From Eledone cirrhosa (lineage: Eukaryota): 64,000 bases of DNA. Both the position numbers and the translations under genes were made by a program. The notes beneath the pieces are model-generated. The model saw only the letters and a list, made by a program, of their open reading frames with translations. It was not told the DNA's origin and searched no databases. Below, piece after piece: positions 7,999 through 64,000 of the stretch. The number at the start of each line of letters is the position of its first letter. Position 1 is the first letter of the stretch. Location: positions 320,540,001 to 320,604,000 of the forward strand of contig OZ024741.1 of NCBI GenBank assembly GCA_964016885.1, given 5' to 3'.

Positions 7999-8058
<60 letters not shown>

Positions 8059-8149
8059 CGAAGGAAATGTGGTAAGGAACCAGGTGGACCATAACGCACC
8101 AAAGTACTCAATACTTGAGGTAGTAGAGTGGGTAATAGGAACCAGTAAG

Positions 8150-8243
8150 ACCCCGACAGCTGAGCTCAAGCCGTTTCGACGGCTAATTCTGGACTAAATG
8201 AAAATTTATCCTGGTATTTAAATAGCCGATCTTCTCAAGGGGT
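8150..8243 (-). ncRNA. Type I hammerhead ribozyme, U3-A8 core variant (array copy 1)
   Basis: Minus strand ACCCC-TTGAGAA-GATCGGCTA...TAGCCGTC-GAAA-CGGCT-TGAGCTC-AGCT-GTC^-GGGGT. Confidence 0.8.
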
Positions 8244-9356
8244 AATTCCATATATGGTCAAAGTGATTGTCAAAAATCAGTAGTAATTCTGTGGTTGCAA
8301 ATTAGTAGGGGAGATGGTGGCTAAACCTGCCAGTAGGAGAAAGAGGGGAGGGGTGGAGTAGACCCAATCAAGCGTTGGTAGTGCCAGCTACAGCTGGGCA
8401 TGAGGTCAAAGAAGATACAGGGGAGGGGGAGGGGGAGGAAGTCGGAACGGTAGGTAGAACAATGGGGGGTAGAAATAGGAAAGAAAAAAAAAAAAAATAC
8501 TGAGAGTGAAGAAAGGCAAATAAGTGTAAAGAAAAGTAAAGTAAATTAAATTCTACGACCTAGGTGTCAGGCTATTGTTAGGCGAGAATAAAATAAAGAA
8601 AGAAAGAAAGAAGTAAAAAAATAAATAAATGAATAAATAAGGAAATAAGTAAGAGAACTAGGTGGGACGGTTAAGGCAAGGACCCTTTTAAGAGGTATAA
8701 GTACGTAAATGATACGGTGACGGGTCAACAAAAGGGGCCAAAATACTAAAGAGACTACCACGAAATAAACAATAAAGGTTTCCATCCCGGGCCAGCAACG
8801 ACCCAGTGCAGCAAAGTGAACTTGTACGAGATAATAATTCTGAGTCCCGAGAAAAATATATACTAATGCTAACTCTAAAAGATCTAAAACAAGCTACATG
8901 AAAGTTCGTACGAAATAAAGGTAGAATACGGAGAAATAAATTCAGAATCCACCCCGCCCAGAAGAAGAGCGAAGCAAGAAATACTGAAACGAAAAAATAA
9001 GGCATGTGCCACTAAGAAATATAGAGGGCACAGAGAATAGTGGGAGCGGTCGGAAAAAGGGGGAAAGTATCCGGGGTCTAAGCCAGCTGCTATAAAGGGC
9101 GGAGTCCGCCAAATCTATCAAAGACTAGGGGAGGGGGGGGGGGGGGGTTACTAAGGCTACATGGGGCCAAAGGGCAGCCTCTGGTGGGCGAGAAAAGACG
9201 CCGACAAAGGAGAAGAGCTGGGGTAGAAGGACAAAGGGGAGAGGGGGGAAGGAAATAAAGGAAGCGATAAAAGAATACAAAGAAGATCTTACGTCTTCCT
9301 TGGCAAGCAGGGGTTACCTATTGCAAAATCGGCAACTGGGGTGTTATAGCCCTAGT

Positions 9357-11510
9357 CTACCCCCCCGGGTCATTATGGGGTTTGAGGGCGAGGTAAGTCC
9401 TACGCAATCTATGTTTACATGCAGTAACCAGTTCATCTTTCTTGTTTAGGAGTTGGTCCGTCGAAAACAGCATTTGTAAAGTTTCCTCCGAGCATAAATT
9501 GCACGGACGGCGTCCTCCCGTGTAAGAATTGGCTCTGGACAGTAATCTCCAAGTGAGATCATAGGTGATGTTGTTGTCCTTGAGGTCCCATATGTGGCCC
9601 GAAAGTGTAGTGGCGTGACGCCGGGCCGGGTTTCGGAAGGTATGTCTATGTTGGTATAGCCGGGTCTTGAAGTCACATGCGGTAAGTCCTATATAGGCTT
9701 TGATGGAGGTATCCGTCCTCACGTTGCACTGGTAGATCACATTACGGTCTCTGCATCTATTGTCGAGTGGGCAAATAGATCTATCCGGGCAGTTACACCT
9801 CCTGGTCGGTTCTCCACTGCTAATTAGGTTATTTCTGCCATCGGGGTTGAGTTTTTTGTTGTTAGAGGAGACGATGTTTTGTGCGAAGTTTGGTGTAGTG
9901 CTGTAAGAGAGTTTGATGGTATTTTTGTTAATTATGTTGTGGTAGCGGTGTTGTAATGGGAAGTGTTTTTCAATGAGCCTAAAGAATAGTTTCCCGATGG
10001 GAGTAGTCACCTCTGCGTTGTGGGGAGGATTGAACCATGTTACATTGCGTGAGCGGCGGTGTCTCCTGCTGGTTCCGCTAATGGGAGCTGGACAGTAGGA
10101 TATTTCCTCCCGGAAACCACTCCGCTTGAGGGCCTGGTTGTAATAAGGCGCATGTTCATCGAATATCCGCTCATTAGCTGACAAACGGGATATGCGGGGG
10201 GAGATGTTTTTGACCAGGTTGTTTGTGATGTTCCTAGGATGGTTTGATCGGCGGTGGATGTAGTGCAGATTGTCATTTGGTTTCCTGTATGGGTAGTACA
10301 GGTCGTTTTCGAGGTCGAGGGTTACGTCCAGGAAGTTTACTCGGGTCAGGGACGTTTGTAGGGTTATTTTAAATCCCCAGTCGCGGAAGAATCTGATTAA
10401 TTGTTTCCGGACCCGATCTGTACTACTGGGGTTGTACCCTTTAAGGGTAAGGAGCCCATCATCACGGTACAATCCACCACCGAATGCAGGAAACATATCA
10501 GTGAGTTTGGCTATTAGGAATAATCCTATAAGATCAGTGACCTCCGCCGAATCCGTGGCGCCCATGCTGACGTCGAAGGGTGAGTCGGGAGCTCTTTTTA
10601 TCCATTTAGAGTCGTCAAAGAGTAAGACTGTCTTCCTGGCGTGGAGGATGATTTTTCTTTCCTGGTCGGTGATGGGCACGAGTGTTTCGGCGAAGTCCAA
10701 GGCGGCAGTAAGTAGCGGTAAGGTGATAGAAGCATAGTAGCTCTCTATGTCGAACTGTATGAATTTAGTTTCTCGTTTATCCTCCATATTGCTGAACCAG
10801 GAGATTACTTCCTGGGTGTTGATCCATAGGCTAAGTCGGGTGTGTTGCTTGACTTTTGGTATCACGCGGTCTAGGATTATTTTGCTGATTCTCCCTATGT
10901 CGGACTTCGTTGGGTTAATAAGCCTGATGGAGGGTTTACGGTCAAAATCGGATTTATGGTCCTTCAGTGTGAAGTATGGTGTCCGTGGGTCTAGAGGTTC
11001 CGTGCGGTCGGCGACCCCGAGGCTGGAGGTGATTTGTTGTCCATCTCGATTTATGTCCTCGATACAAGAGTGGTTGGCCTTTTTATAGGTGGAGTTTAGG
11101 CTGCTCCTGATCAGTGTGTGGTATCTGTCAGGGTTGACAAAGTATAGGTTCCCAGTTTTATCCGAATGCACCATGATGTCATTTGTGTTATCATACTCTG
11201 TTAAGTTGCTACGGAGTTTTTGTAGGAATCGGTTGTGTCTGGGTTTAAATTTAATGTTCTTGACCAGTTGGAAGAGGTCATTCTCGAAGGGTGCGAGCAA
11301 GGGGTTCAGGGGCGGAGATTTGTAGGTAATAAATCCGAATCTCTCCTTGGTGCCGAAGTCTTGGTTGTCGCAATATCTGTCATAGAAAAAAGTTCTCCAT
11401 CTAAGTCTTTTCGCAAATAGATCAATTTTTTGCGTGAGCATCCGAAGGTAAAGTTTTTTCGGTGGGATTGGGATGTTCTTGGTAGAGAAGTCAATGTTGT
11501 GTTTTCGCAT
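9357..11510 (-). CDS. Intact PLE polyprotein: reverse transcriptase + Cys-rich linker + GIY-YIG endonuclease (717 aa from first ATG; frame open to 11657)
   Basis: RT motifs FDIESYY, SMGATDSAEVTDLIG, GLYRDDGL, NFLDVTL; CNC-x5-CPL-x3-C linker; VIYQC...YIG GIY-YIG; C-terminal CNLC...CKH. Confidence 0.93.
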   Translation of the reverse strand: MRKHNIDFSTKNIPIPPKKLYLRMLTQKIDLFAKRLRWRTFFYDRYCDNQDFGTKERFGFITYKSPPLNPLLAPFENDLFQLVKNIKFKPRHNRFLQKLRSNLTEYDNTNDIMVHSDKTGNLYFVNPDRYHTLIRSSLNSTYKKANHSCIEDINRDGQQITSSLGVADRTEPLDPRTPYFTLKDHKSDFDRKPSIRLINPTKSDIGRISKIILDRVIPKVKQHTRLSLWINTQEVISWFSNMEDKRETKFIQFDIESYYASITLPLLTAALDFAETLVPITDQERKIILHARKTVLLFDDSKWIKRAPDSPFDVSMGATDSAEVTDLIGLFLIAKLTDMFPAFGGGLYRDDGLLTLKGYNPSSTDRVRKQLIRFFRDWGFKITLQTSLTRVNFLDVTLDLENDLYYPYRKPNDNLHYIHRRSNHPRNITNNLVKNISPRISRLSANERIFDEHAPYYNQALKRSGFREEISYCPAPISGTSRRHRRSRNVTWFNPPHNAEVTTPIGKLFFRLIEKHFPLQHRYHNIINKNTIKLSYSTTPNFAQNIVSSNNKKLNPDGRNNLISSGEPTRRCNCPDRSICPLDNRCRDRNVIYQCNVRTDTSIKAYIGLTACDFKTRLYQHRHTFRNPARRHATTLSGHIWDLKDNNITYDLTWRLLSRANSYTGGRRPCNLCSEETLQMLFSTDQLLNKKDELVTACKHRLRRTYLALKPHNDPGG

Positions 11511-11695
11511 GGTGCGGGTGAAATGAATTGAGCTTAGCGGAAAAGTCTGGATGCGGCGTGGTAGGGTCGGAAAGTGCTCTACTACGGGAGTAGGAGCTAG
11601 ATAACGAAGGAAATGTGGTAAGGAACCAGGTGGACCATAACGCACCAAAGTACTCAATACTTGAGGTAGTAGAGTGGGTAATAGGAACCAGTAAG

Positions 11696-11789
11696 ACCCC
11701 GACAGCTGAGCTCAAGCCGTTTCGACGGCTAATTCTGGACTAAATGAAAATTTATCCTGGTATTTAAATAGCCGATCTTCTCAAGGGGT
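11696..11789 (-). ncRNA. Hammerhead ribozyme U3-A8 variant (copy 2)
   Basis: Same sequence as 8150-8243. Confidence 0.8.
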
Positions 11790-12900
11790 AATTCCATATA
11801 TGGTCAAAGTGATTGTCAAAAATCAGTAGTAATTCTGTGGTTGCAAATTAGTAGGGGAGATGGTGGCTAAACCTGCCAGTAGGAGAAAGAGGGGAGGGGG
11901 TGGAGTAGACCCAATCAAGCGTTGGTAGTACCAGCTACAGCTGGGCATGAGGTCAAAGAAGATACAGGGGAGGGGGAGGGGGTGGAAGTCGGAACGGTAG
12001 GTAGAACAATGGGGGGTACAAATAGGAAAGAAAAAAAAAAAAAATACTGAGAGTGAAGAAAGGCAAATAAGTGTAAAGAAAAGTAAAGTAAATTAAATTC
12101 TACGACCTAGGTGTCAGGCTATTGTTAGGCGAGAATAAAATAAAGAAAGAAAGAAAGAAGTAAAAAAATAAATAAATGAATAAATAAGGAAATAAGTAAG
12201 AGAACTAGGTGGGACGGTTAAGGCAAGGACCCTTTTAAGAGGTATAAGTACGTAAATGATACGGTGACGGGTCAACAAAAGGGGCCAAAATACTAAAGAG
12301 ACTACCACGAAATAAACAATAAAGGTTTCCATCCCGGGCCAGCAACGACCCAGTGCAGCAAAGTGAACTTGTACGAGATAATAATTCTGAGTCCCGAGAA
12401 AAATATATACTAATGCTAACTCTAAAAGATCTAAAACAAGCTACATGAAAGTTCGTACGAAATAAAGGTAGAATACGGAGAAATAAATTCAGAATCCACC
12501 CCGCCCAGAAGAAAAGCGAAGCAAGAAATACTGAAACGAAAAAATAAGGCATGTGCCACTAAGAAATATAGAGGGCACAGAGAATAGTGGGAGCGGTCGG
12601 AAAAAGGGGGAAAGTATCCGGGGTCTAAGCCAGCTGCTATAAAGGGCGGAGTCCGCCAAATCTATCAAAGACTAGGGGAGGGGGGGTGGGGGTACTAAGG
12701 CTACATGGGGCCAAAGGGCAGCCTCGGGTGGGCGAGAAAAGACGCCGACAAAGGAGAAGAGCTGGGGTAGAAGGACAAAGGGGAGAGGGGGGAAGGAAAT
12801 AAAGGAAGCGATAAAAGAATACAAAGAAGATCTTACGTCTTCCTTGGCAAGCAGGGGTTACCTATTGCAAAATCGGCAACTGGGGTGTTATAGCCCTAGT

Positions 12901-15054
12901 CTACCCCCCCGGGTCATTATGGGGTTTGAGGGCGAGGTAAGTCCTACGCAATCTATGTTTACATGCAGTAACCAGTTCATCTTTCTTGTTTAGGAGTTGG
13001 TCCGTCGAAAACAGCATTTGTAAAGTTTCCTCCGAGCATAAATTGCACGGACGGCGTCCTCCCGTGTAAGAATTGGCTCTGGACAGTAATCTCCAAGTGA
13101 GATCATAGGTGATGTTGTTGTCCTTGAGGTCCCATATGTGGCCCGAAAGTGTAGTGGCGTGACGCCGGGCCGGGTTTCGGAAGGTATGTCTATGTTGGTA
13201 TAGCCGGGTCTTGAAGTCACATGCGGTAAGTCCTATATAGGCTTTGTTGGAGGTATCCGTCCTCACGTTGCACTGGTAGATCACATTACGGTCTCTGCAT
13301 CTATTGTCGAGTGGGCAAATAGATCTATCCGGGCAGTTACACCTCCTGGTCGGTTCTCCACTGCTAATTAGGTTATTTCTGCCATCGGGGTTGAGTTTTT
13401 TGTTGTTAGAGGAGACGATGTTTTGTGCGAAGTTTGGTGTAGTGCTGTAAGAGAGTTTGATGGTATTTTTGTTAATTATGTTGTGGTAGCGGTGTTGTAA
13501 TGGGAAGTGTTTTTCAATGAGCCTAAAGAATAGTTTCCCGATGGGAGTAGTCACCTATGCGTTGTGGGGAGGATTGAACCATGTTACATTGCGTGAGCGG
13601 CGGTGTCTCCTGCTGGTTCCGCTAATGGGAGCTGGACAGTAGGATATTTCCTCCCGGAAACCACTCCGCTTGAGGGCCTGGTTGTAATAAGGCGCATGTT
13701 CATCGAATATCCGCTCATTAGCTGACAAACGGGATATGCGGGGGGAGATGTTTTTGACCAGGTTGTTTGTGATGTTCCTAGGATGGTTTGATCGGCGGTG
13801 GATGTAGTGCAGATTGTCATTTGGTTTCCTGTATGGGTAGTACAGGTCGTTTTCGAGGTCGAGGGTTACGTCCAGGAAGTTTACTCGGGTCAGGGACGTT
13901 TGTAGGGTTATTTTAAATCCCCAGTCGCGGAAGAATCTGATTAATTGTTTCCGGACCCGATCTGTACTACTGGGGTTGTACCCTTTAAGGGTAAGGAGCC
14001 CATCATCACGGTACAATCCACCACCGAATGCAGGAAACATATCAGTGAGTTTGGCTATTAGGAATAATCCTATAAGATCAGTGACCTCCGCCGAATCCGT
14101 GGCGCCCATGCTGACGTCGAAGGGTGAGTCGGGAGCTCTTTTTATCCATTTAGAGTCGTCAAAGAGTAAGACTGTCTTCCTGGCGTGGAGGATGATTTTT
14201 CTTTCCTGGTCGGTGATGGGCACGAGTGTTTCGGCGAAGTCCAAGGCGGCAGTAAGTAGCGGTAAGGTGATAGAAGCATAGTAGCTCTCTATGTCGAACT
14301 GTATGAATTTAGTTTCTCGTTTATCCTCCATATTGCTGAACCAGGAGATTACTTCCTGGGTGTTGATCCATAGGCTAAGTCGGGTGTGTTGCTTGACTTT
14401 TGGTATCACGCGGTCTAGGATTATTTTGCTGATTCTCCCTATGTCGGACTTCGTTGGGTTAATAAGCCTGATGGAGGGTTTACGGTCAAAATCGGATTTA
14501 TGGTCCTTCAGTGTGAAGTATGGTGTCCGTGGGTCTAGAGGTTCCGTGCGGTCGGCGACCCCGAGGCTGGAGGTGATTTGTTGTCCATCTCGATTTATGT
14601 CCTCGATACAAGAGTGGTTGGCCTTTTTATAGGTGGAGTTTAGGCTGCTCCTGATCAGTGTGTGGTATCTGTCAGGGTTGACAAAGTATAGGTTCCCAGT
14701 TTTATCCGAATGCACCATGATGTCATTTGTGTTATCATACTCTGTTAAGTTGCTACGGAGTTTTTGTAGGAATCGGTTGTGTCTGGGTTTAAATTTAATG
14801 TTCTTGACCAGTTGGAAGAGGTCATTCTCGAAGGGTGCGAGCAAGGGGTTCAGGGGCGGAGATTTGTAGGTAATAAATCCGAATCTCTCCTTGGTGCCGA
14901 AGTCTTGGTTGTCGCAATATCTGTCATAGAAAAAAGTTCTCCATCTAAGTCTTTTCGCAAATAGATCAATTTTTTGCGTGAGCATCCGAAGGTAAAGTTT
15001 TTTCGGTGGGATTGGGATGTTCTTGGTAGAGAAGTCAATGTTGTGTTTTCGCAT
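12901..15054 (-). pseudogene. PLE ORF copy 2 with nonsense codon
   Basis: Matches copy 1 except GAG>TAG at 13555-13557 and TSIK>TSNK. Confidence 0.9.
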
Positions 15055-15239
15055 GGTGCGGGTGAAATGAATTGAGCTTAGCGGAAAAGTCTGGATGCGG
15101 CGTGGTAGGGTCGGAAAGTGCTCTACTACGGGAGTAGGAGCTAGATAACGAAGGAAATGTGGTAAGGAACCAGGTGGACCATAACGCACCAAAGTACTCA
15201 ATACTTGAGGTAGTAGAGTGGGTAATAGGAACCAGTAAG

Positions 15240-15333
15240 ACCCCGACAGCTGAGCTCAAGCCGTTTCGACGGCTAATTCTGGACTAAATGAAAATTTATC
15301 CTGGTATTTAAATAGCCGATCTTCTCAAGGGGT
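15240..15333 (-). ncRNA. Hammerhead ribozyme U3-A8 variant (copy 3)
   Basis: Same sequence as 8150-8243. Confidence 0.8.
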
Positions 15334-16444
15334 AATTCCATATATGGTCAAAGTGATTGTCAAAAATCAGTAGTAATTCTGTGGTTGCAAATTAGTAGGG
15401 GAGATGGTGGCTAAACCTGCCAGTAGGAGAAAGAGGGGAGGGGGTGGAGTAGACCCAATCAAGCGTTGGTAGTACCAGCTACAGCTGGGCATGAGGTCAA
15501 AGAAGATACAGGGGAGGGGGAGGGGGTGGAAGTCGGAACGGTAGGTAGAACAATGGGGGGTACAAATAGGAAAGAAAAAAAAAAAAAATACTGAGAGTGA
15601 AGAAAGGCAAATAAGTGTAAAGAAAAGTAAAGTAAATTAAATTCTACGACCTAGGTGTCAGGCTATTGTTAGGCGAGAATAAAATAAAGAAAGAAAGAAA
15701 GAAGTAAAAAAATAAATAAATGAATAAATAAGGAAATAAGTAAGAGAACTAGGTGGGACGGTTAAGGCAAGGACCCTTTTAAGAGGTATAAGTACGTAAA
15801 TGATACGGTGACGGGTCAACAAAAGGGGCCAAAATACTAAAGAGACTACCACGAAATAAACAATAAAGGTTTCCATCCCGGGCCAGCAACGACCCAGTGC
15901 AGCAAAGTGAACTTGTACGAGATAATAATTCTGAGTCCCGAGAAAAATATATACTAATGCTAACTCTAAAAGATCTAAAACAAGCTACATGAAAGTTCGT
16001 ACGAAATAAAGGTAGAATACGGAGAAATAAATTCAGAATCCACCCCGCCCAGAAGAAAAGCGAAGCAAGAAATACTGAAACGAAAAAATAAGGCATGTGC
16101 CACTAAGAAATATAGAGGGCACAGAGAATAGTGGGAGCGGTCGGAAAAAGGGGGAAAGTATCCGGGGTCTAAGCCAGCTGCTATAAAGGGCGGAGTCCGC
16201 CAAATCTATCAAAGACTAGGGGAGGGGGGGTGGGGGTACTAAGGCTACATGGGGCCAAAGGGCAGCCTCGGGTGGGCGAGAAAAGACGCCGACAAAGGAG
16301 AAGAGCTGGGGTAGAAGGACAAAGGGGAGAGGGGGGAAGGAAATAAAGGAAGCGATAAAAGAATACAAAGAAGATCTTACGTCTTCCTTGGCAAGCAGGG
16401 GTTACCTATTGCAAAATCGGCAACTGGGGTGTTATAGCCCTAGT

Positions 16445-18598
16445 CTACCCCCCCGGGTCATTATGGGGTTTGAGGGCGAGGTAAGTCCTACGCAATCTAT
16501 GTTTACATGCAGTAACCAGTTCATCTTTCTTGTTTAGGAGTTGGTCCGTCGAAAACAGCATTTGTAAAGTTTCCTCCGAGCATAAATTGCACGGACGGCG
16601 TCCTCCCGTGTAAGAATTGGCTCTGGACAGTAATCTCCAAGTGAGATCATAGGTGATGTTGTTGTCCTTGAGGTCCCATATGTGGCCCGAAAGTGTAGTG
16701 GCGTGACGCCGGGCCGGGTTTCGGAAGGTATGTCTATGTTGGTATAGCCGGGTCTTGAAGTCACATGCGGTAAGTCCTATATAGGCTTTGTTGGAGGTAT
16801 CCGTCCTCACGTTGCACTGGTAGATCACATTACGGTCTCTGCATCTATTGTCGAGTGGGCAAATAGATCTATCCGGGCAGTTACACCTCCTGGTCGGTTC
16901 TCCACTGCTAATTAGGTTATTTCTGCCATCGGGGTTGAGTTTTTTGTTGTTAGAGGAGACGATGTTTTGTGCGAAGTTTGGTGTAGTGCTGTAAGAGAGT
17001 TTGATGGTATTTTTGTTAATTATGTTGTGGTAGCGGTGTTGTAATGGGAAGTGTTTTTCAATGAGCCTAAAGAATAGTTTCCCGATGGGAGTAGTCACCT
17101 ATGCGTTGTGGGGAGGATTGAACCATGTTACATTGCGTGAGCGGCGGTGTCTCCTGCTGGTTCCGCTAATGGGAGCTGGACAGTAGGATATTTCCTCCCG
17201 GAAACCACTCCGCTTGAGGGCCTGGTTGTAATAAGGCGCATGTTCATCGAATATCCGCTCATTAGCTGACAAACGGGATATGCGGGGGGAGATGTTTTTG
17301 ACCAGGTTGTTTGTGATGTTCCTAGGATGGTTTGATCGGCGGTGGATGTAGTGCAGATTGTCATTTGGTTTCCTGTATGGGTAGTACAGGTCGTTTTCGA
17401 GGTCGAGGGTTACGTCCAGGAAGTTTACTCGGGTCAGGGACGTTTGTAGGGTTATTTTAAATCCCCAGTCGCGGAAGAATCTGATTAATTGTTTCCGGAC
17501 CCGATCTGTACTACTGGGGTTGTACCCTTTAAGGGTAAGGAGCCCATCATCACGGTACAATCCACCACCGAATGCAGGAAACATATCAGTGAGTTTGGCT
17601 ATTAGGAATAATCCTATAAGATCAGTGACCTCCGCCGAATCCGTGGCGCCCATGCTGACGTCGAAGGGTGAGTCGGGAGCTCTTTTTATCCATTTAGAGT
17701 CGTCAAAGAGTAAGACTGTCTTCCTGGCGTGGAGGATGATTTTTCTTTCCTGGTCGGTGATGGGCACGAGTGTTTCGGCGAAGTCCAAGGCGGCAGTAAG
17801 TAGCGGTAAGGTGATAGAAGCATAGTAGCTCTCTATGTCGAACTGTATGAATTTAGTTTCTCGTTTATCCTCCATATTGCTGAACCAGGAGATTACTTCC
17901 TGGGTGTTGATCCATAGGCTAAGTCGGGTGTGTTGCTTGACTTTTGGTATCACGCGGTCTAGGATTATTTTGCTGATTCTCCCTATGTCGGACTTCGTTG
18001 GGTTAATAAGCCTGATGGAGGGTTTACGGTCAAAATCGGATTTATGGTCCTTCAGTGTGAAGTATGGTGTCCGTGGGTCTAGAGGTTCCGTGCGGTCGGC
18101 GACCCCGAGGCTGGAGGTGATTTGTTGTCCATCTCGATTTATGTCCTCGATACAAGAGTGGTTGGCCTTTTTATAGGTGGAGTTTAGGCTGCTCCTGATC
18201 AGTGTGTGGTATCTGTCAGGGTTGACAAAGTATAGGTTCCCAGTTTTATCCGAATGCACCATGATGTCATTTGTGTTATCATACTCTGTTAAGTTGCTAC
18301 GGAGTTTTTGTAGGAATCGGTTGTGTCTGGGTTTAAATTTAATGTTCTTGACCAGTTGGAAGAGGTCATTCTCGAAGGGTGCGAGCAAGGGGTTCAGGGG
18401 CGGAGATTTGTAGGTAATAAATCCGAATCTCTCCTTGGTGCCGAAGTCTTGGTTGTCGCAATATCTGTCATAGAAAAAAGTTCTCCATCTAAGTCTTTTC
18501 GCAAATAGATCAATTTTTTGCGTGAGCATCCGAAGGTAAAGTTTTTTCGGTGGGATTGGGATGTTCTTGGTAGAGAAGTCAATGTTGTGTTTTCGCAT
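16445..18598 (-). pseudogene. PLE ORF copy 3 with the same nonsense codon
   Basis: TAG at 17099-17101, same codon as copy 2. Confidence 0.9.
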
Positions 18599-18783
18599 GG
18601 TGCGGGTGAAATGAATTGAGCTTAGCGGAAAAGTCTGGATGCGGCGTGGTAGGGTCGGAAAGTGCTCTACTACGGGAGTAGGAGCTAGATAACGAAGGAA
18701 ATGTGGTAAGGAACCAGGTGGACCATAACGCACCAAAGTACTCAATACTTGAGGTAGTAGAGTGGGTAATAGGAACCAGTAAG

Positions 18784-18877
18784 ACCCCGACAGCTGAGCT
18801 CAAGCCGTTTCGACGGCTAATTCTGGACTAAATGAAAATTTATCCTGGTATTTAAATAGCCGATCTTCTCAAGGGGT
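18784..18877 (-). ncRNA. Hammerhead ribozyme U3-A8 variant (copy 4)
   Basis: Same sequence as 8150-8243. Confidence 0.8.
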
Positions 18878-19988
18878 AATTCCATATATGGTCAAAGTGA
18901 TTGTCAAAAATCAGTAGTAATTCTGTGGTTGCAAATTAGTAGGGGAGATGGTGGCTAAACCTGCCAGTAGGAGAAAGAGGGGAGGGGGTGGAGTAGACCC
19001 AATCAAGCGTTGGTAGTACCAGCTACAGCTGGGCATGAGGTCAAAGAAGATACAGGGGAGGGGGAGGGGGTGGAAGTCGGAACGGTAGGTAGAACAATGG
19101 GGGGTACAAATAGGAAAGAAAAAAAAAAAAAATACTGAGAGTGAAGAAAGGCAAATAAGTGTAAAGAAAAGTAAAGTAAATTAAATTCTACGACCTAGGT
19201 GTCAGGCTATTGTTAGGCGAGAATAAAATAAAGAAAGAAAGAAAGAAGTAAAAAAATAAATAAATGAATAAATAAGGAAATAAGTAAGAGAACTAGGTGG
19301 GACGGTTAAGGCAAGGACCCTTTTAAGAGGTATAAGTACGTAAATGATACGGTGACGGGTCAACAAAAGGGGCCAAAATACTAAAGAGACTACCACGAAA
19401 TAAACAATAAAGGTTTCCATCCCGGGCCAGCAACGACCCAGTGCAGCAAAGTGAACTTGTACGAGATAATAATTCTGAGTCCCGAGAAAAATATATACTA
19501 ATGCTAACTCTAAAAGATCTAAAACAAGCTACATGAAAGTTCGTACGAAATAAAGGTAGAATACGGAGAAATAAATTCAGAATCCACCCCGCCCAGAAGA
19601 AAAGCGAAGCAAGAAATACTGAAACGAAAAAATAAGGCATGTGCCACTAAGAAATATAGAGGGCACAGAGAATAGTGGGAGCGGTCGGAAAAAGGGGGAA
19701 AGTATCCGGGGTCTAAGCCAGCTGCTATAAAGGGCGGAGTCCGCCAAATCTATCAAAGACTAGGGGAGGGGGGGTGGGGGTACTAAGGCTACATGGGGCC
19801 AAAGGGCAGCCTCGGGTGGGCGAGAAAAGACGCCGACAAAGGAGAAGAGCTGGGGTAGAAGGACAAAGGGGAGAGGGGGGAAGGAAATAAAGGAAGCGAT
19901 AAAAGAATACAAAGAAGATCTTACGTCTTCCTTGGCAAGCAGGGGTTACCTATTGCAAAATCGGCAACTGGGGTGTTATAGCCCTAGT

Positions 19989-20555
19989 CTACCCCCCCGG
20001 GTCATTATGGGGTTTGAGGGCGAGGTAAGTCCTACGCAATCTATGTTTACATGCAGTAACCAGTTCATCTTTCTTGTTTAGGAGTTGGTCCGTCGAAAAC
20101 AGCATTTGTAAAGTTTCCTCCGAGCATAAATTGCACGGACGGCGTCCTCCCGTGTAAGAATTGGCTCTGGACAGTAATCTCCAAGTGAGATCATAGGTGA
20201 TGTTGTTGTCCTTGAGGTCCCATATGTGGCCCGAAAGTGTAGTGGCGTGACGCCGGGCCGGGTTTCGGAAGGTATGTCTATGTTGGTATAGCCGGGTCTT
20301 GAAGTCACATGCGGTAAGTCCTATATAGGCTTTGTTGGAGGTATCCGTCCTCACGTTGCACTGGTAGATCACATTACGGTCTCTGCATCTATTGTCGAGT
20401 GGGCAAATAGATCTATCCGGGCAGTTACACCTCCTGGTCGGTTCTCCACTGCTAATTAGGTTATTTCTGCCATCGGGGTTGAGTTTTTTGTTGTTAGAGG
20501 AGACGATGTTTTGTGCGAAGTTTGGTGTAGTGCTGTAAGAGAGTTTGATGGTATT
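19989..20555 (-). pseudogene. PLE ORF copy 4, 5'-truncated (linker and endonuclease part only)
   Basis: Homology stops at 20555; 5 nt filler AGTTA, then the inverted arm. Confidence 0.9.
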
Positions 20556-20560
20556 AGTTA

Positions 20561-21985
20561 ATCACCTATGATCTCACTTGGAGATTACTGTCCAGAGCCA
20601 ATTCTTACACGGGAGGACGCCGTCCGTGCAATTTATGCTCGGAGGAAACTTTACAAATGCTGTTTTCGACGGACCAACTCCTAAACAAGAAAGATGAACT
20701 GGTTACTGCATGTAAACATAGATTGCGTAGGACTTACCTCGCCCTCAAACCCCATAATGACCCGGGGGGGTAGACTAGGGCTATAACACCCCAGTTGCTG
20801 ATTTTGCAGTAGGTAACCCCTGCTTGCCAAGGAAGACGTAAGATCTTCTTTGTATTCTTTTATCGCTTCCTTTATTTCCTTCCCCCCTCTCCCCTTTGTC
20901 CTTCTACCCCAGCTCTTCTCCTTTGTCGGCGTCTTTTCTCGCCCACCCGAGGCTGCCCTTTGGCCCCATGTAGCCTTAGTACCCTCACCCCCCCTCCCCT
21001 AGTCTTTGATAGATTTGGCGGACTCCGCCCTTTATAGCAGCTGGCTTAGACCCTGGATACTTTCCCCCTTTTTCCGACCGCTCCCACTATTCTCTGTGCC
21101 CTCTATATTTCTTAGTGGCACATGCCTTATTTTTTCGTTTCAGTATTTCTTGCTTCGCTTTTCTTCTGGGCGGGGTGGATTCTGAATTTATTTCTCCGTA
21201 TTCTACCTTTATTTCGTACGAACTTTCATGTAGCTTGTTTTAGATCTTTTAGAGTTAGCATTAGTATATATTTTTCTCGGGACTCAGAATTATTATCTCG
21301 TACAAGTTCACTTTGCTGCACTGGGTCGTTGCTGGCCCGGGATGGAAACCTTTATTGTTTATTTCGTGGTAGTCTCTTTAGTATTTTGGCCCCTTTTGTT
21401 GACCCGTCACCGTATCATTTACGTACTTATACCTCTTAAAAGGGTCCTTGCCTTAACCGTCCCACCTAGTTCTCTTACTTATTTCCTTATTTATTCATTT
21501 ATTTATTTTTTTACTTCTTTCTTTCTTTCTTTATTTTATTCTCGCCTAACAATAGCCTGACACCTAGGTCGTAGAATTTAATTTACTTTACTTTTCTTTA
21601 CACTTATTTGCCTTTCTTCACTCTCAGTATTTTTTTTTTTTCTTTCCTATTTCTACCCCCCATTGTTCTACCTACCGTTCCGACTTCCTCCCCCTCCCCC
21701 TCCCCTGTATCTTCTTTGACCTCATGCCCAGCTGTAGCTGGCACTACCAACGCTTGATTGGGTCTACTCCACCCCTCCCCTCTTTCTCCTACTGGCAGGT
21801 TTAGCCACCATCTCCCCTACTAATTTGCAACCACAGAATTACAACTGATTTTTGACAATCACTTTGACCATATATGGAATTACCCCTTGAGAAGATCGGC
21901 TATTTAAATACCAGGATAAATTTTCATTTAGTCCAGAATTAGCCGTCGAAACGGCTTGAGCTCAGCTGCCGGGGTCTTACTGGTT

Positions 21986-21990
<5 letters not shown>
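20561..21990 (+). repeat. Inverted ORF end + pLTR (~1.43 kb inverted repeat of 18769-20201)
   Basis: Reverse complement of the adjacent unit with a 359 bp spacer; ends CCTAT|(TA)n. Confidence 0.92.
21882..21975 (+). ncRNA. Hammerhead in inverted arm, cleavage triplet mutated GTC>GCC
   Basis: C at 21969 replaces U16.1. Confidence 0.75.
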
Positions 21991-26437: not shown

Positions 26438-26616
26438 CAAATGTTGTTTTACAGATAGTGAACTATTCAAACTAGAACTTAATGTTTTGAGTTCTATTTG
26501 AATAACTCATTGCTTAAATAACTCATTGCTAATATATATATATATAAAGAATTAGTATATCTACCAACATATATATACAGATGTATACCTATGCATTTTT
26601 CATATATATATATATA

Positions 26617-27072
26617 AATGGAATAGAATGAAACGAAATTTCATTTCTCACTCTTAGTTCGGCACTTACTTAAATGTAAGTACGTATGTATGTATACGTA
26701 CATACATATATGTATACAGACGTACAGTAGTATGTATATATATACATACATGCACACATATATATATGCACGTATCGGTTTACGGAACATTTATTATAAT
26801 GCTCGGTTTGTTTGTTTGTAAACAAACAGCCCGAATTACGCCGTAAAATTTTTAGGCAACCACGTCACCTTTTTGTTCAACACAAAACTGCCTAAAAACT
26901 GTACAGCGTAATTCGGGCTGTTTATTTGTTTACAAACAAACAAACCGAGCATTATAATAAATGTTCGGTTAACCGATACGTGCATATATATATGTGTGCA
27001 TGTATGTATATATATACATACTACTGTACGTATGTATACATATATATATATGTACGTATACATACATACATA

Positions 27073-46619: not shown

Positions 46620-47029
46620 TTGTATTAGAATGATATGAAAATATTTTATACACTAGATAAAAGATAAAGAAGGAGGTAGGAAGAGAAGGGGAAGAGGGAA
46701 GTGAGTAAGGTGGAGGGAGTCTTAGGATTTAAGACTGTCAGACTAGTAGAGATTGTGAGGAGAAAATGTTTTGGCAGCAGTTAGCTTAATGAGGCGTGCT
46801 AAGGTTGGCGGAGAAGTAGATTCTTCTAGTGGTGTTGTTCGGACAAAATTTAGTTAAAGGGGTCAAAGTGGTACAGTGTCACAGACAAGTTATTAGGGCT
46901 ATTATAGTAGCAGGTTATTTCTAAAGGGGTCCAGAAAAACAGTGTTTAGTACTATTATTATAGAAAGCCATATCCTGTGTATAAACATATAAGACAGAAA
47001 TTTGCAAACGGTGGTGTAAAAAGGTAACA

Positions 47030-49309
47030 TTATATGCATTTAAAAAAAGAAAAGGTCGTTTTCAAACGATGGTTACAGTATAGAGAACGTTCAATTTTGC
47101 TGTTCAAAAGTTTGTTTACCGACGTTAAAATGCAGTATATCTCTAAATTGTATAACTTGCAGAATCGATGATTTTGCTGATATGCAGGCGCAGCTGCAAT
47201 AATTTGCCAATCAAGGGAGAACGCTTGATTGTTCCTCCGAAGCTGACAGGCTTTATCGGCGAGGGTTGTTACGGAGCGCATTTTCTCGTGCCTGATCGAA
47301 GATCGATGTTGGTATAGGCGAGCCTTGAAAGAAGTTGCGGTACATCCGACGTAATACCATTTGTTGGTTCCGGAATTTATTGTACATCGGTAGACAATAT
47401 TGCGTGCTAGGCACTGGTTATTCAGTGGGCACGTACCTGGTTTGGTGCAGTTACAATTATTTTTATGTTTTGCAGTAGAATCCTGGATAGTTTGGTGGGG
47501 TTGTGGATGCGTGTTAGTGCGTTGTATGTTGCTATGCTGGCGCGCTGAGTCATTAGGGATGTACTTATTCAGTATTGCTGAGTTGAGTTTTCTAATTAGT
47601 TGTTCTATGTTAGGTGCAGTGGAGTATGAGAGTCTAATGGTGCGCGAGTTAAAGATTTTATAGTATTTATGTGAAGTTGTAAAGTGTTTATTGATTAGTG
47701 TATAGAATTGTGAGATAATCTTAGTGCTAATAGAAGAATTGTACACGGGGTTATACCATATGTACTCTCTACGTCTGACTCTATTTGCTGGTTTGCACCT
47801 ATTAGTATGCCTATTGATGTGTGTGTGTGGTGCAATACTAGTTCGACTTAGATGTGTTTTATTCATAGTACTTATGTGGTTATCGTCTAGATATTCAATT
47901 TTCTCGCAGTAACCAGCTTTTCTAAGTGCGTCATTATAATATTCAGCATGCTCGTTGAAGGTCTGCAAATTAGACGACAGTCGGGAGATCCTTATGGATA
48001 TATTTTTAGGGATAGATTTAATAATGGAATGAGGATGGTTCGATTTTACATTAACGTACTTAAGATTTTCATTAAGTTTGTGAAATGGCTCTATATTACC
48101 GTTATTAAGGTTGAAGGTGACATCCAAGAAATTGACCACCTTAAGATTGTGTTCGAAGGTAATATTAAGCCCTAGTTCTAAGAAAAGTTTCCTAATGTTT
48201 TTACGTCGCCTTTCTAGGTTTTGTTTGTTCATATTCTTGACTAATAGAAGTGTATCGTCGCGGTATATTCCGCCGTGGAGGTCCGTAAATTCGCTCTGGA
48301 GTCTATGGGCTATAAGATCCCAACCAAATCCGTGACCTCCGCCGAATCATTAGAACCCATCGTAATGTCGAATTCCGAGGGTCTATCCCTGTGGACCCAA
48401 TAACTATTTTCAAAGTGCACTACTGTGCGTCTAGCTTCAAGTATAATATTAATTTCCTCGTTTGTGAGGTCCGAGTTAGTCTTAGCGAAAGAGAGGGCCT
48501 TATGCAGGGTTTCGGGTGAAATAGAGGAATAGTATTCATCTATATCGAATTGAATAAAAGAAGATTTGTTTTTGTCCCTAATGCTATTGAACCATCTTAT
48601 TGCCTGATGAGTATTACCCCATAATTTAATATCTACCTTAGCCTTAACTTGGGGGATAATACGATCTAATATGTACTTACTAATTCGACCTATATCAGAC
48701 TTAGAAGGACATTAATCTAATTTTAGGGTTAGTATCAAAGTTATCCTAATGGTCCTTCAGATTAAAAGTCGGTGTAGCTGGAGATAGGGGTACCGTTCTG
48801 TCGTCAATTTTCAGTTTCCTAACAATATCAAATGCTGCGTTATTAATGTTGGTTAGTGTAGTTGCGTTTGTTTTTTTGTACTTCCTATGTAATTCCTTAC
48901 GTATAAAATTGTTATATGTTTCTACATCCAGGGTGTATAGATTCGATGTTCTGTCTGCCTTTATGATAATTCCTTTGGTATTCCTTAGGTTGTCGAGTAG
49001 AGTTTTAATATCTCGTTGTAGTTCGTTTTTCCTTCCGTTTGTAAATTTGATTCCGGTTATCATTTTCATTAAGTCCTGTTCGAAAGAATCCAAAAGAGGG
49101 TTAGAGGGTGGGTTTTTGTGGGATTTGAAACCAAACTTATCGTTGTTGGTGTCCGAAGTTTGTGTAATCCTTTTCCTATCGAAGTGGAAGGCCTTCCATC
49201 TAATCCGCCGAATAAATTCGTTGGTCCTTTGTATCATACCAAGAATGTAATCCTTTTTACCCTGAATGGGTATGTTTTTTAAGGACATACCACAATGATG
49301 TTTTTCCAT
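47030..49309 (-). pseudogene. PLE RT + GIY-YIG ORF, frameshifted
   Basis: SLKNIP, FDIDEYYSSI, TMGSNDSAEVTD, IYRDDTL, NFLDVTFNL, WYNP, CNCTKPGTCPLNNQC, IVYRC...YYVG; frameshifts near 48330 and 48715. Confidence 0.9.
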
Positions 49310-49580
49310 TTCAGAGACGTAGGTTGATAGGTTGCTCGACTGTAAAGGAGTGTGAAGAATTAGTAAATTTGTATTCCAATGTTACTAAGTAGTTGCATTG
49401 GATGGAGTCAACCGACGTCAGAGATTGCTCAACGTATAATAAAGTGTGTTTTAAAATCCGGAGAAAATATGGAGAAGAAGTTTACGAAATGGAAATGCGG
49501 GTATATAGAATTTAATATAAAACACACTTTATTATATATATATATATAGATAGATATAGATATATAGATATAGATATATA

Positions 49581-52500
49581 CTAGCAGTTTAGCCCGGCGT
49601 TGCTCGGGTTTGTTCATTTGGCATGAAAAGTTACAAACAGGTAAACGTAGCTTAAAAGCGCATAAGCTTATCAATTAAGTGCATAAAGCAGTTGAACCGG
49701 TTATTAATAGTTACGAACCAATTAGCATTTTGGACAATCAATGATGGGTTAATAATCTTCCAATAGCGAATTTAGTAGACCAAAGCTGCAATATGGTGGC
49801 CCTGATGCCGCTAGGTGTCAGATCTGTCCGCTATGGGTGACCCTACCAGTTTTCCAGACGGCATAGCTCCAACACCTGCACCAACATCTATAGCACCTCT
49901 TTGAAGACGATATTGCGTGTCATCCCTTGAGGAGTGTAAGCAAAAAGTCCATTCCTGCTCGCTACGCGGGAACAGGCAACATAAAGTTAGCCATGGGAGA
50001 AGCATGACTCCCCCAAAGGGATGCCCTCCACCGACAATGTTTGCCCTCGTGACTTGTTAATGGACATGGCAAAACATGGTCTCCGGAAATTGGGATCGCC
50101 GGAAATCGAACTGGATATCTGACGCCGAGGGGAAAAGTTTCATCCTTGGAATGAAAACATTCTCCCCTCTCCCGCACCCCGTTACAATGGTGGCCTCAAT
50201 CTAGTGGGGCGTCAGTGACTTGACGACCATGCGAGTACCGTTGCACTCCTTATTAGCATAAGGGGACAGCCAACCCTAAGCTTAAGAATGTGAGGTGGGA
50301 GCCCTGGGGGCTCAAGGGAATTTAATAACTCAACCGGATAATTAACGATATCGTCGGGGTCTGACGTCCGGTCGATAGATTTGAAGATGTGTTCTTTACC
50401 GGGAATTTTCTCAATCAGCTGCTCATTAATAAAATTAACCATGGTATTTTTCGGAGCCAATCGAGATTTTTAAAGTTAGATGAGACATTAGCAAAAACTG
50501 CTTTCCAAAGGTCAGAAGGGCTGCTCACAATGTTGCACAGGGAGTCGATTGCTATGCCGCCCTTGTCATCCGCAGGGACCTTGCCCTCACCAAGTGCTAA
50601 AATATTCTGAGCAAATGCTGCAGACATGTTGTCACCATGCAAATGAGCACGCATATTTGTGCTCAGGTACAAACTCTTCACCTGGAGCTACAACATGGAC
50701 GCTTAAGACAGGCACGCACTTCATCAGCCCTTATCCCTTTGGGGATGACAGGCAGCGTTTGCCGAAAATCCCCTGATAGCAGAAGGGTTACGGCACCCAT
50801 AGAAGTAGTAGAATCCCTAATGTCTTTCAGGGTCCTGTCCAATGCCTCAAGAACACCCTTGTGTGCCATTGTTCACTCATCAATTTTTGAGAACCAGAGC
50901 TTCGTGTGAACTCTTGCTGATATTCCATGTTGGTGTCTCAGTTTTTACTAAATCCAAGGGGAGTTTAAAGGTTGAATGTACTGTCCTGCCTCCCGGCAGC
51001 AAAGTAGCAGCGATCCCGGACGATGCAACGGCCAACGCAATTTTTTTCTCCTGAAGAATCTTAGCGAGAATCAATTTCGTTACATAAATTTTTCCGGTAT
51101 CCCAGGGAGCATCGAGAAAGTAAATACCCCCAGTATGATTTTGAACCGCGTCAATGATAGTTAAATAGGCCAACCTTTGGTCCGACAGAAATTTGGGCTC
51201 ATTTTCCTCTAAGTATTGGGGAAAAGATTCGATGTCATATTCTGTTTCCCGCAACAAATCCGGGGTCAACGTGTTAGCTTCCTCTCTGACGATTGACGGC
51301 AAGCCATACGTCGCCAACTCACTCCCACCCATGTTGAGGAGGGCGTCCTCGATATCACTGAGTGCCCTGTTGTAGATTATGTCGCTGTAACCAACTTCCA
51401 CTGAAGTATACTGCAGATGAACCAGGCGCAGGAAGTCCTCAGACATGAAGTCTCTGTACTTGACCCATAAAGATTTGGGATCACCCAATTCACACTTTTG
51501 AAGCAAAATAGCAAAGAGTTCCCTTAGACCTTTAGGTGATTTCAACAAAGCACCCTCTGCTAAAGTGGAATCCCATTGCGAATCATCTTCCAAAAGACCA
51601 TGCTTAAAGCAGGCTTCCCGGTACGTATCACATATTTCTCCATCAACAGTTTTGATGTCCTGAAAACTGTGTGGGCCTTCAACTTCATGCAGAAGAAGGC
51701 GGAGATGAAAGCACTCATGCTGACTTGGGGGCACAGTGTAAACCTTTCCAAGACAGCTGTCAAATTTTACACCAGGATGTCTTTCAGCAGCCTGACCTGA
51801 TTTTCTTCGCACCCAAGTGTTTTTCGACCATATAAAGTAGGATGGAACCTGGGAGTATACAATTGTTTGCGCAAATGTATCGAACTGGCAAAGTTTGAAG
51901 AAACCCGTCAGAGGGGTCCCTTTTGGATCGGCGGCCAACTTGGCGGCGGTTTGGTCCGTAAAGTAAACCCTTTGCCCATTTTCCAAATGTACCGTAAGCT
52001 GTACGATGGCGGGGTGCCGTTGGTGTAGGGGTAAACCAAATAGGCGCCAAAAAGCTTCATTGCTACTGATGTACCGCCCCGCCAGGTATTCTGTGACCTC
52101 GACTCTGCTATTTTCAGCTTGAAATGCGAACATTGCGGCACCAGAGCCCTTATATACATATTTGCATATGTATTTTATCGACTTGACGGAGTTGCAAAAC
52201 GCAACGTTGATGTGGGCGTTGAACACCTTCAAGAGAAGCGGGCAGTAAGGGACCACCCATCTATTGTCGACTTGACCTCCTCTTACTGTTGTGGTGAAGC
52301 CACCGTTCTCGGGCCGTCTCCGCCTGTACAGGGGTTCCCGTCGCCACCAGTTGAATTTGGTCAACACATTTTTGGGGGTATCCCTTGCTGAACGACCCCC
52401 CCCCTTCAGACACGTGTGATGCTCATTAGGACCCAACGCACACGGACCATGAATCATGTTACCTTTGACGATGTCATGTAATTCCTGGTCAGTTGCTGGG

Positions 52501-53886
52501 TTAGGGATTTCAGCCGAAATGTAGCTGTCTATGGCATTTGAATTGATTTTATCAGCTAACCAAATCAAATGTGAGCTTGTGGCAGCCCTCGTTTTTGCCA
52601 TTCGGCGGTGAACATGTCACATTTTACAGCTCCAAATACCTGACCTTTTTTATTAAAGCCATGAGTTTAACCAGTTTCAGTCTGAACACTCTGGCAATGA
52701 GGTCATGTCTGTTCGAATAATTTTTGCCCAGGAAAAAGTTCACGGGTTACATTCCGATTCATATGTCTATCGCATTAAACTGTTATATGAAGTGTTATTC
52801 TGCGGGTTATTATTTGCAATAAGCCGATTGAAAATGCCCCAGAATAGCCGTATGTCAAAACGGAACGCTCCACTGCAGTGTTGTCATATAGGGAGTGAAG
52901 AGCGACAGAGAGAGTAAAGCAGTTAAATTATAGAGAGGGGGAATATACGGAACGGTCCATTTGATCATATACATTGTTTCTCTCTCGGCAGTGTTGTCAT
53001 ATAGGGAGTGAAGAGCGACAGAGAGTTTGTTGTCTTATAAATTCATCTGTTGCATTTGAATATTTGTTATTTGATGTAAAATGTAACTGTGTAAAATGTA
53101 ACGTTGAGAGAGCAGTATGTATTTAGTGTTATCGGCTTTTTAAATTTTGATATTTGATATATGAGTGTCGTTATGACTGTTTGTTGTTGTATAAAATGAT
53201 GTGTTGCTTAGTTATCAAAGTTCTTTTCGCGTTCCCGAACGAATAGGGCGAATGATCTATTATATACAGAAAGAAGAGCGACGGATAGAGTGAAGCTAGT
53301 GTTAAACCTCGAAGCATGAAGAGAGTAAAGCAGTTAAATTATAGAGAGGGGGAATAATTTATTGTAGAGAGAGGGAAGAGCGACGGAGGGAGTAAAGCTA
53401 TGGTTGTTGTGTTGCTTCGGTTTCAAAGTTTGTGTCGCGTTCCTTCAAAAGAAGTTTTGTCCTTGTTCTAAATTGTAATGGTGATAGAGTAGTAGACGGA
53501 GGCAGTAACCTTTTAAAGAGAGTTGCAGAGGAGATTGAGGGGGGGGGGGGTAGAGAGAGTGATTAACCTTTTAAAGAGAGTTGCAGAGGAGATTGAGAGT
53601 GGAGTAGAGGAAAGGATGAACCTTTTAAAGAGAGTTGCAACATGTATGTAGTTTCATATATTTTTGATGGTAGTAGTGAGAGGAATGAAGCGTGTAAGAG
53701 AGAGGGTTACAGCATGTATTTAGTTTTATCGATTTGTTTTCATAGAAGCAGGAAACTTTTGGCAAATATAATTACGCGTTGACCTGCCCTGGTAAATTTG
53801 GAGCACATTAGAAAAAAATCATCAAAATCGGTAGAGAAATGTGGAAATGCATATAAATCATACACACACACAGACAGACATCTACC

Positions 53887-53900: not shown

Positions 53901-53941
<41 letters not shown>

Positions 53942-53943
<2 letters not shown>

Positions 53944-54200
53944 AAACAATGAAAGGAAATTTCATTTCTCAGTCTTAGTACGGCTGTTACTTAAATATAA
54001 ATATGTATACGTACATACATATATGTATACAGACGTACAGTAGTATGTATATATATACATACATGCACACATATATATGTGTACGTATGGGTTTACCGAA
54101 CATTTATTATAATGCTGGGTTTGTTAGTAAACAAACAGCCTGAATCAAGCCGTACAGTGTTTAGCAACCATCGTTGCTCTTTTGTTCAACACTGACAAAT
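53942..54200 (-). mobile_element. Single copy of the 428 bp retrozyme-like family
   Basis: Homologous to the reverse complement of 63545-63803; (TA)n on both sides. Confidence 0.75.
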
Positions 54201-54201
54201 A

Positions 54202-54272
<71 letters not shown>

Positions 54273-63195: not shown

Positions 63196-63258
<63 letters not shown>

Positions 63259-63276
63259 TTATATATATATATATAT

Positions 63277-64000
63277 GAAAAATGAAACGAAATTTCATTT
63301 CTCACTCTTAGTACGGCTGTTACTTAAATATAAGTATGTATACGTACATACATATATGTATACAGACGTACAATAGTATGTATATATATATACATACATG
63401 CACACACATATATATATATATGTACGTATGGATTTACCGAACATTTATTATAATGCTCGGTTTTTTTGTAAACAAACATCCCGAATTAAGCCGTACAAGA
63501 AGGTGCTGACGATAGCTAATAAGCTTGAAACTAGTACATCATTCCTTTGACAGTGTTGAACAAAAGGGCAAAGATGATTGCTAAACACTGTACGGCTTAA
63601 TTCGGGATGTTTGTTTACAAAGAAACCGAGCATTATAATAAATGTTCGGTAAATCCATACGTAGAGATATATATGTGTGCATGTATGTATATATATACAT
63701 ACTACTGTACGTCTGTATACATATATGTATGTACGTATACATACTTATATTTAAGTAACAGCCGTACTAAGAGTGAGAAATGAAATTTCGTTTCATTTTT
63801 TCTATTTATCGTTTTCGGTGCGCCCAGCCGATTGACTCACTCGATATGCATATTAGGCTGCTCAGCCGTTAATATGCATAAGGAAAGTATATACTTTCAG
63901 ACGTTCAATCATCTGCCAGGAAGGTATAAGGTGCTGACGCTAGCTAATAAGCTTGAAACTAGTACATCGTTCCTTTCTCAGTGTTGAATAAAAAGGCAAC
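63277..64000 (+). mobile_element. Non-coding 428 bp tandem unit with HHR plus 5' inverted arm (retrozyme-like); runs off window
   Basis: HHR GGTG-CTGACGA-TAGCT-AATA-AGCTT-GAAA-CTA-GTA^-CATC at 63502-63540, repeated at 63930-63968 (A9C); 63277-63496 inverts ~63590-63802. Confidence 0.8.

What the first reader, a model, noticed from the sequence alone, without database searches (positions are those of the whole stretch)
63277..64000. 428 nt non-coding HHR-to-HHR unit: candidate new retrozyme family riding on PLEs
Seen: two HHRs 428 bp apart, no ORF, a PLE-style 5' inversion and a (TA)n flank, with further copies at 26617-27075 and 53942-54200. Known: animal non-LTR retrozymes are small tandem HHR repeats that give circRNAs. 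Inference: a non-autonomous parasite of the Naiad-like PLEs, since it shares their target and fold-back signature.
Basis: partly seen in the sequence, partly recalled or inferred. Interest (0 to 1): 0.72.

Follow-up and report, generated by a model that had tools for sequence, protein, structure and literature searches.

The report
Penelope-copied hammerhead retrozyme family
This is one copy of a 428-base non-coding repeat with a predicted self-cutting RNA motif, present at over ten thousand places in this animal genome, whose copies end at two fixed sites in TA repeats just as Penelope-type jumping genes do, so it is likely a parasite copied by their enzyme, possibly from an RNA circle.

Summary
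Observation confirmed. Two type I hammerhead (HHR) cores lie 428 nt apart; the 31-nt core occurs exactly 10,046 times genome-wide (control 0). Copies are head-to-tail, non-coding, 5'-truncated at scattered positions, and end at two fixed sites (unit ~252-256 and ~312) in (TA)n. Of 58 two-armed insertions, 43 pair one end of each kind and none pairs like with like. This is the Penelope-like element (PLE) 'tail' footprint, also seen in autonomous PLEs of this genome. Both arms share subfamily alleles (354 of 421 versus 19.5%). No copy in 123 loci joins a PLE ORF, so it is not the pLTR of any PLE sampled. It is a non-LTR retrozyme-type, non-autonomous PLE parasite. Correction: the window's PLE has Hydra motifs, not Naiad; tail length and HHR type fit the genome's Neptune elements best. 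Homologous sister families of 466 and ~440 nt exist. Self-cleavage, expression and circularity are untested (no RNA data). The scan noted this family before on other DNA of this genome (e1-8665316).

The parts
63206..63276 (.). (TA)n target, left flank
63269..63497 (-). inverted arm, unit 92-312, ending outward at the distal fixed end (site B); its last bases merge with the TA run
   Evidence: (L001)
63498..63925 (+). one full 428-nt unit
63506..63536 (+). type I HHR core 1 (U10.1-U11.1 mismatch, 4-bp stem II, palindromic stem III); predicted cut after 63536; outer stem I lost at the inversion junction
63749..63809 (+). about 58-60-nt 'tail' between the two family 3' ends (site A about 63749-63753, site B about 63809); inferred RT start sites
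63926..64000 (+). second, partial unit; continues beyond the window to about 64165 (site A) and (TA)n
63934..63964 (+). HHR core 2 with C in place of A9 (probably dead)
26614..27071 (.). two-armed, HHR-less copy of the 445-nt subfamily: unit 56-312 on minus (26614-26883) and 84-253 on plus (26892-27071)
53936..54210 (-). HHR-less copy, unit 49-312, with a vestigial site-A arm of about 10 nt and (TA)n on both sides
8052..21990 (.). context: young autonomous PLE with Hydra motifs, 3544-nt period, two arms ending at its own two sites 83 nt apart; not homologous to the unit

Best explanation
The unit is a non-coding, high-copy repeat whose copies end at two fixed sites in TA runs, and it is likely a non-LTR retrozyme: an RNA predicted to self-cleave, and possibly to circularise, that a Penelope-like reverse transcriptase/endonuclease, most likely of the Neptune type, would copy into DNA in trans. 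Shown: tandem 420-450-nt units with one HHR each, two fixed 3' ends about 59 nt apart, TA targets, scattered 5' ends, tail-out two-armed insertions with one end of each kind, arms from the same subfamily, read-through across the predicted cut site, and no link to an ORF. Inferred: the endonuclease cuts both strands of (TA)n; the two 3' ends prime at site A and site B of one RNA; each RT stops at a variable point and the two cDNAs are joined head to head. Arms crossing the HHR need a circular or an uncleaved multimeric template; which of the two is not settled.
For: Copy number. 152 of 179 arms from the position-ordered loci end at A or B. Two-armed insertions: 43 of 58 are A+B, 15 have one unassigned end, 0 are AA or BB. 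(TA)4 follows 59 of 71 site-A and 62 of 72 site-B ends. Autonomous PLEs here show the same two-end anatomy, and two adjacent RT start sites explain the PLE tail in vitro (PMC11167929, parts 1-2 of 4 read). Opposite arms share minor alleles at 354 of 421 comparisons, control 19.5%. In the young 466-nt sister family the 4 rare variants shared by all overlapping segments are all A>G on the RNA strand (both arms: 4 of 59; control 0 of 2434). Circular MFE z = -6.0, -6.5, -9.0 for three copies. The fold is kept against the 62%-identical sister: 31 of 74 changed pairs still pair, null 21, P about 0.006. U10.1-U11.1 is a natural, cleavage-competent variant (PMC3088659 passage). Neptune N1 carries an HHR with the same U-U mismatch and 4-nt palindromic stem III; Neptune tails are about 37-68 nt against 83-106 nt for Hydra.
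Against: No RNA evidence either way; cleavage and circles are untested, and 8 of 9 Xenopus retrozyme dimers did not cleave in vitro (10.64898/2026.07.22.740005). No sequence homology to any sampled Hydra or Neptune end, so the helper is not identified; the Neptune preference rests on tail length and HHR shape in three families. The minus strand also folds well (z -4.1 to -6.3). Pair conservation to the ~440-nt sister is not above null (25 of 91, null 24). In this family the shared rare variants are not A>G-rich (4 of 23). 91 of 104 crossing arms cross the cut site only once, which a dimer transcript also explains. The longest array examined has a higher-order repeat of about 1295 nt, which points to DNA-level expansion.
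Confidence: 0.8

Rival explanations
1. A non-autonomous PLE copied from uncleaved linear multimeric transcripts; the HHR is weak or dispensable and no circle takes part.
For: HHR cleavage was not needed for PLE insertion in vitro and unprocessed RNA was the main substrate (PMC11167929). Most arms cross the cut site at most once. Head-to-tail non-autonomous PLEs such as MRC1 exist (PMC8557442 passage).
Against: An HHR core is kept once per unit in three homologous families that are 44-62% identical. The 5' and 3' ends of the cut monomer are predicted to pair. Arms of 3-5 units exist.
Confidence: 0.35
2. The unit is the pLTR of an autonomous PLE not yet sampled, and the copies are its 5'-truncated products.
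For: Truncated PLE ends look alike and abound here. Xenopus retrozymes are homologous to pLTRs. Only about 160 loci of more than 10,000 were read, with flanks of 1.5-2.5 kb.
Against: Arms that extend upstream of the HHR continue into the previous unit; 67 free 5' flanks share no fixed junction. 5 of 123 loci have a same-strand PLE ORF piece within 1.5 kb upstream, all across a microsatellite and at different unit positions. A Neptune-adjacent copy (L292) is separated from it by (TA)n.
Confidence: 0.07
3. A satellite or MITE-like repeat spread at the DNA level; the HHR likeness is incidental.
For: One array of about 40 units has a higher-order repeat. Two-armed copies resemble terminal inverted repeats.
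Against: The arms are unequal, end at two different fixed sites and have scattered inner ends; this is shared with autonomous PLEs.
Confidence: 0.03

Closest known systems
Metazoan non-LTR retrozymes (Cervera and de la Pena 2020, PMC7229834; abstract, sections 13, 14, 17 read)
   Same: Tandem non-coding units with one canonical type I HHR, GC 36%, no LTR, highly self-paired predicted circle, thousands of copies, coexisting PLEs; mussel units are 350-390 bp.
   Different: 428 nt is slightly above the 170-400 nt RNAs reported, inside the 150-450 bp repeat range. PLE mobilisation is only proposed there; the two fixed ends and two-armed copies are not described in the sections read. RNA is not shown here.
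Animal retrozymes as non-autonomous PLE sequences (Li, Clavereau, Pollet 2026, 10.64898/2026.07.22.740005; parts 1-3 of 5 read, supplements closed)
   Same: Non-autonomous PLE dependants with tandem HHR units of 51-972 bp.
   Different: Their evidence is co-occurrence and pLTR homology in vertebrates, three insects and one anthozoan, no mollusc. Here there is an insertion footprint but no pLTR homologue was found.
PLE tail and internal RT initiation, Poseidon PAc (Frangieh 2024, PMC11167929; parts 1-2 of 4 read); PLE anatomy (Craig 2021, PMC8557442; passages and section 11)
   Same: Two adjacent start sites downstream of the HHR, AT-rich targets cut on both strands, partial tandems, inverted 5'-truncated copy, tail at one end only.
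   Different: No ORF here. In vitro the start site did not differ between strands, whereas here the two arms always use different sites. Tail about 59 nt versus 30-40 bp.
MRC1 and other non-autonomous Chlamys PLEs (PMC8557442 passage)
   Same: Non-coding, multicopy head-to-tail, PLE-dependent.
   Different: Green algae; generally similar to autonomous families at the 3' end; most Chlamys lack HHRs.

Membership tests
non-LTR retrozyme | short tandem units each with a type I HHR | tested here: met
   core intact in the family majority
non-LTR retrozyme | non-coding; no LTR organisation | tested here: met
   longest frame 72 codons; circularly permuted tandem anatomy. PBS/PPT not searched separately
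non-LTR retrozyme | dispersed, high copy, low GC, self-paired predicted circle | tested here: met
non-LTR retrozyme | HHR self-cleaves (as monomer or dimer) | not testable with these tools
   needs in vitro transcription; U10.1-U11.1 is tolerated in PMC3088659
non-LTR retrozyme | expressed as unit-length linear and circular RNA | not testable with these tools
   no RNA holder listed
non-autonomous PLE | two fixed 3' ends (tail), 5' truncation, inverted copy, TA target | tested here: met
non-autonomous PLE | 3'-end homology to an autonomous partner | tested here: inconclusive
   none with 3 Hydra and 4 Neptune-type families sampled; many families unsampled
pLTR of an autonomous PLE | fixed junction to an RT-EN ORF | tested here: not met
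   0 of 123 loci
   the intact PLE ORFs inspected have a C-terminal GIY-YIG; one fragment in L279 was not placed

The most novel reading that the evidence does not exclude
A clade of protein-free structured RNA circles (428, 466 and ~440 nt, 44-62% identical) that has evolved apart from any pLTR and is written into the genome by a Neptune-type PLE dimer that primes both strands of a TA break at two assigned sites of a single circle. This would be genomic evidence for the proposed rolling-circle retrotransposition of animal retrozymes and a minimal 60-nt cis signal for PLE-mediated insertion.
Probability: 0.4. Interest if true: 0.72.

Novelty: new member of a known kind. Interest (0 to 1): 0.55.

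Why it matters
How animal retrozymes get into DNA has been argued from co-occurrence and pLTR likeness. Here a retrozyme carries the PLE-specific two-start-site footprint in many copies, with a strict one-site-per-arm rule that the in vitro PLE work did not see. This gives a small RNA with mapped start sites and intact candidate enzymes in the same genome, so trans-mobilisation, circle versus multimer template and the role of the HHR become directly testable. No retrozyme from a cephalopod turned up in the paper searches; Repbase and Dfam could not be checked.

Tried and rejected
Rfam: 0 hits at gathering thresholds. Pfam: no family over cut-off for three Hydra ORFs. Sequencing runs: no RNA holder listed; the one RNA-guess run laid 0 contigs, and two other runs held only 10 and 13 low-depth contigs, not read as host range. 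Homology of the unit to PLE ends by BLAST and nhmmer: none. A pyrimidine-tract likeness between site B and the ends of Hydra B and Neptune N3 was set aside as low-complexity. L292, L117 and L097 (unit downstream of a PLE) are separate insertions across microsatellites. L057 (unit abutting an inverted Hydra EN fragment) lies in a larger inverted duplication and was not taken as a chimera. Pile-up of 5' ends at the cut site: 12 of 152 at unit 37-60 against about 8.5 expected, and BLAST edge artefacts give larger piles elsewhere, so inconclusive. Co-folding two HHRs did not give the stem III dimer, and a hand-set structure was mis-specified. Searches (timeout; empty) gave nothing. The 86 monomer lengths were pre-filtered to 400-480 nt, so the unfiltered spacings are the test used. 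Look-up of earlier findings by sequence was empty.

Full report
Observation. The window holds HHR cores at 63506-63536 and 63934-63964, 428 nt apart, an inverted arm at 63269-63497 and (TA)n to its left. The window is G000:C2:320540001-320604000 of a 3.0-Gb animal genome. I take it for an octopod from its repeat make-up (recall) and from the wording of earlier notes; no call names it. Reading past the edge, the insertion is [unit 312<-92][1->428][1->~256](TA)n. The two other window copies are truncated members without an HHR.

The ribozyme. The family majority over 87 units has the core CUGACGA, a U10.1-U11.1 mismatch, a 4-bp stem II with an AAUA loop, GAAA, a palindromic stem III, a GUA triplet and a bulged stem I. 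This fits the canonical metazoan type I HHR with a short palindromic helix III that works as a dimer (PMC4209133 passages). U10.1-U11.1 occurs naturally and supports cleavage (PMC3088659 passage). Rfam finds nothing at its thresholds. In this copy HHR2 has C for A9 and HHR1 lacks its outer stem I. Activity was not tested.

The family. The 31-nt core has 10,046 exact matches and a 31-nt tail motif 12,907, controls 0. Units are 92-98% identical to the majority, median 95.1%, with subfamilies of about 422, 428 and 445 nt. Among the first 100 listed cores, all 13 same-strand neighbours under 1 kb are 420-453 nt apart. The longest frame in a doubled unit is 72 codons and GC is 36%. Most insertions total under three units; one array of about 40 units shows a higher-order repeat.

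Insertion anatomy. Of 179 distinct arms from position-ordered loci on C1, 152 end at unit 240-263 (site A, 68) or 298-316 (site B, 84); 5' ends are scattered. (TA)4 follows 59 of 71 A ends and 62 of 72 B ends. After dropping overlapping loci, the two long-array loci and edge-cut hits, 131 insertions remained; of their 58 two-armed ones, 43 are A+B, 15 have one unassigned end, and none is AA or BB (an earlier count gave 40 of 52). Opposite arms share minor alleles in 354 of 421 comparisons and tandem units in 502 of 603, against 19.5% between insertions. Rare variants sit on both arms in 20 of 442 cases against 67 of 6043, without A>G excess. 104 of 152 arms cross the predicted cut site, 91 of them once; part of this sample was chosen for holding an HHR, so the share is inflated.

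This is the PLE footprint. Craig et al. describe partial tandems, an inverted truncated copy and a tail at one end (PMC8557442). Frangieh et al. show that the tail lies between two internal RT start sites and that both target strands are cut and extended (PMC11167929). The autonomous PLEs here do the same: the young element in the window ends at two sites 83 nt apart (32 and 49 of 91 mapped ends), two related families at about 105-106 nt, and Neptune-type families at 68, about 50 and about 37 nt.

Not a pLTR. 67 free 5' flanks share no fixed junction. Of 123 loci, 19 hold a PLE ORF piece; 5 have one on the same strand within 1.5 kb upstream, each across a microsatellite. No homology to the ends of sampled Hydra or Neptune families was found. 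The sample is small against more than 10,000 copies.

Which helper. [quoted passage not shown] A GIY-YIG search also gave elements with DKG, a Cx4CxxC linker and a C-terminal endonuclease, which I label Neptune from the linker motif given in Craig et al.; no tree was built. Neptune N1 has an HHR with the same U-U mismatch and 4-nt palindromic stem III, and Neptune tails bracket the unit's 59 nt. Neptune is therefore favoured over Hydra, by inference only (about 60:30).

Sister families. A 466-nt family with copies 99% identical has the same anatomy, ends at 270 and 341, and is 62% identical to the unit. 52 predicted pairs are shared, 8 with both sides changed, and 31 of 74 changed pairs still pair (null 21). 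Its 4 rare variants shared across overlapping segments are all A>G, as expected if one edited RNA served both arms; n is small, and source-locus variants would look alike. A ~440-nt family is 51% identical, but its pair conservation is not above null. The folding z-scores of -6 to -9 come with -4 to -6 on the other strand.

Mechanism. Shown: the DNA anatomy above. Inferred: transcription of tandem copies, HHR processing and perhaps ligation to circles (as shown for coral and mussel retrozymes, PMC7229834), capture by a PLE protein, two-strand priming at A and B on one RNA, truncation and head-to-head joining. Circle versus uncleaved multimer is open (about even). No RNA data were available.

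Novelty. It works like, and on the DNA criteria belongs to, the non-LTR retrozymes, whose dependence on PLEs is proposed in PMC7229834 and argued in 10.64898/2026.07.22.740005 (its supplements are closed and may list families). Searches found no cephalopod retrozyme and no report of the two-end footprint on a retrozyme; subscription journals, Repbase and Dfam were not searchable. Earlier scan notes describe the same family and related ones in this genome; I reached the A/B result before reading them and took the editing test from one of them. Verdict: new member of a known kind with a useful mechanistic footprint, interest 0.55.

Noticed in passing
window 8052-21990: Young autonomous PLE with Hydra motifs, two-armed, 3544-nt period; at least 62 near-identical ORF copies genome-wide. 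No canonical HHR core was matched in its leader although Hydra elements are said to carry one.
   Followed up: partly
L076:2580-3135, L151-L180: 466-nt sister retrozyme family, 99% identical copies, HHR with G10.1-C11.1; the best candidate for bench tests.
   Followed up: yes
L018:2325-2714, L202-L220: ~440-nt distant sister family; HHR with an A-A mismatch at the base of stem II and a non-palindromic stem III; tail only about 25-35 nt.
   Followed up: partly
L064:400-1400, L092:900-1460: 310-315-nt tandem HHR unit, also with the U-U mismatch; apparently the family in earlier notes e1-8668911 and others.
   Followed up: no
L279:6199 and 6658: Two further HHR-like cores 459 nt apart, possibly another retrozyme family.
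   Followed up: no
window 4735-6775, 7610, 26429, 58560, 59134: Further HHR motifs with long stem II and 6-nt palindromic stem III; two flank Hydra-type ORF fragments.
   Followed up: partly
L278, L280, L281: Neptune-type PLE ORFs of 636-1096 codons; the N2 and N3 leaders carry HHR-like motifs with a degenerate first core box.
   Followed up: partly
window 46453-49381: Broken copy of a second Hydra-type family (B), about 4-7% diverged, tail about 105 nt.
   Followed up: partly
window 27161-27455: 142-nt near-perfect inverted repeat with an 11-nt spacer, flanked by (TA)n; probably another two-armed insertion.
   Followed up: no
window 50880-52616 and 34838-37640: Helitron-like helicase fragment and a broken L1/Tx1-like LINE (labels recalled from the translations, not tested).
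   Followed up: no
L117-L118 (C2:203.498-203.516 Mb): Array of about 40 units with a 3-unit higher-order repeat; a possible source locus for multimeric transcripts.
   Followed up: partly
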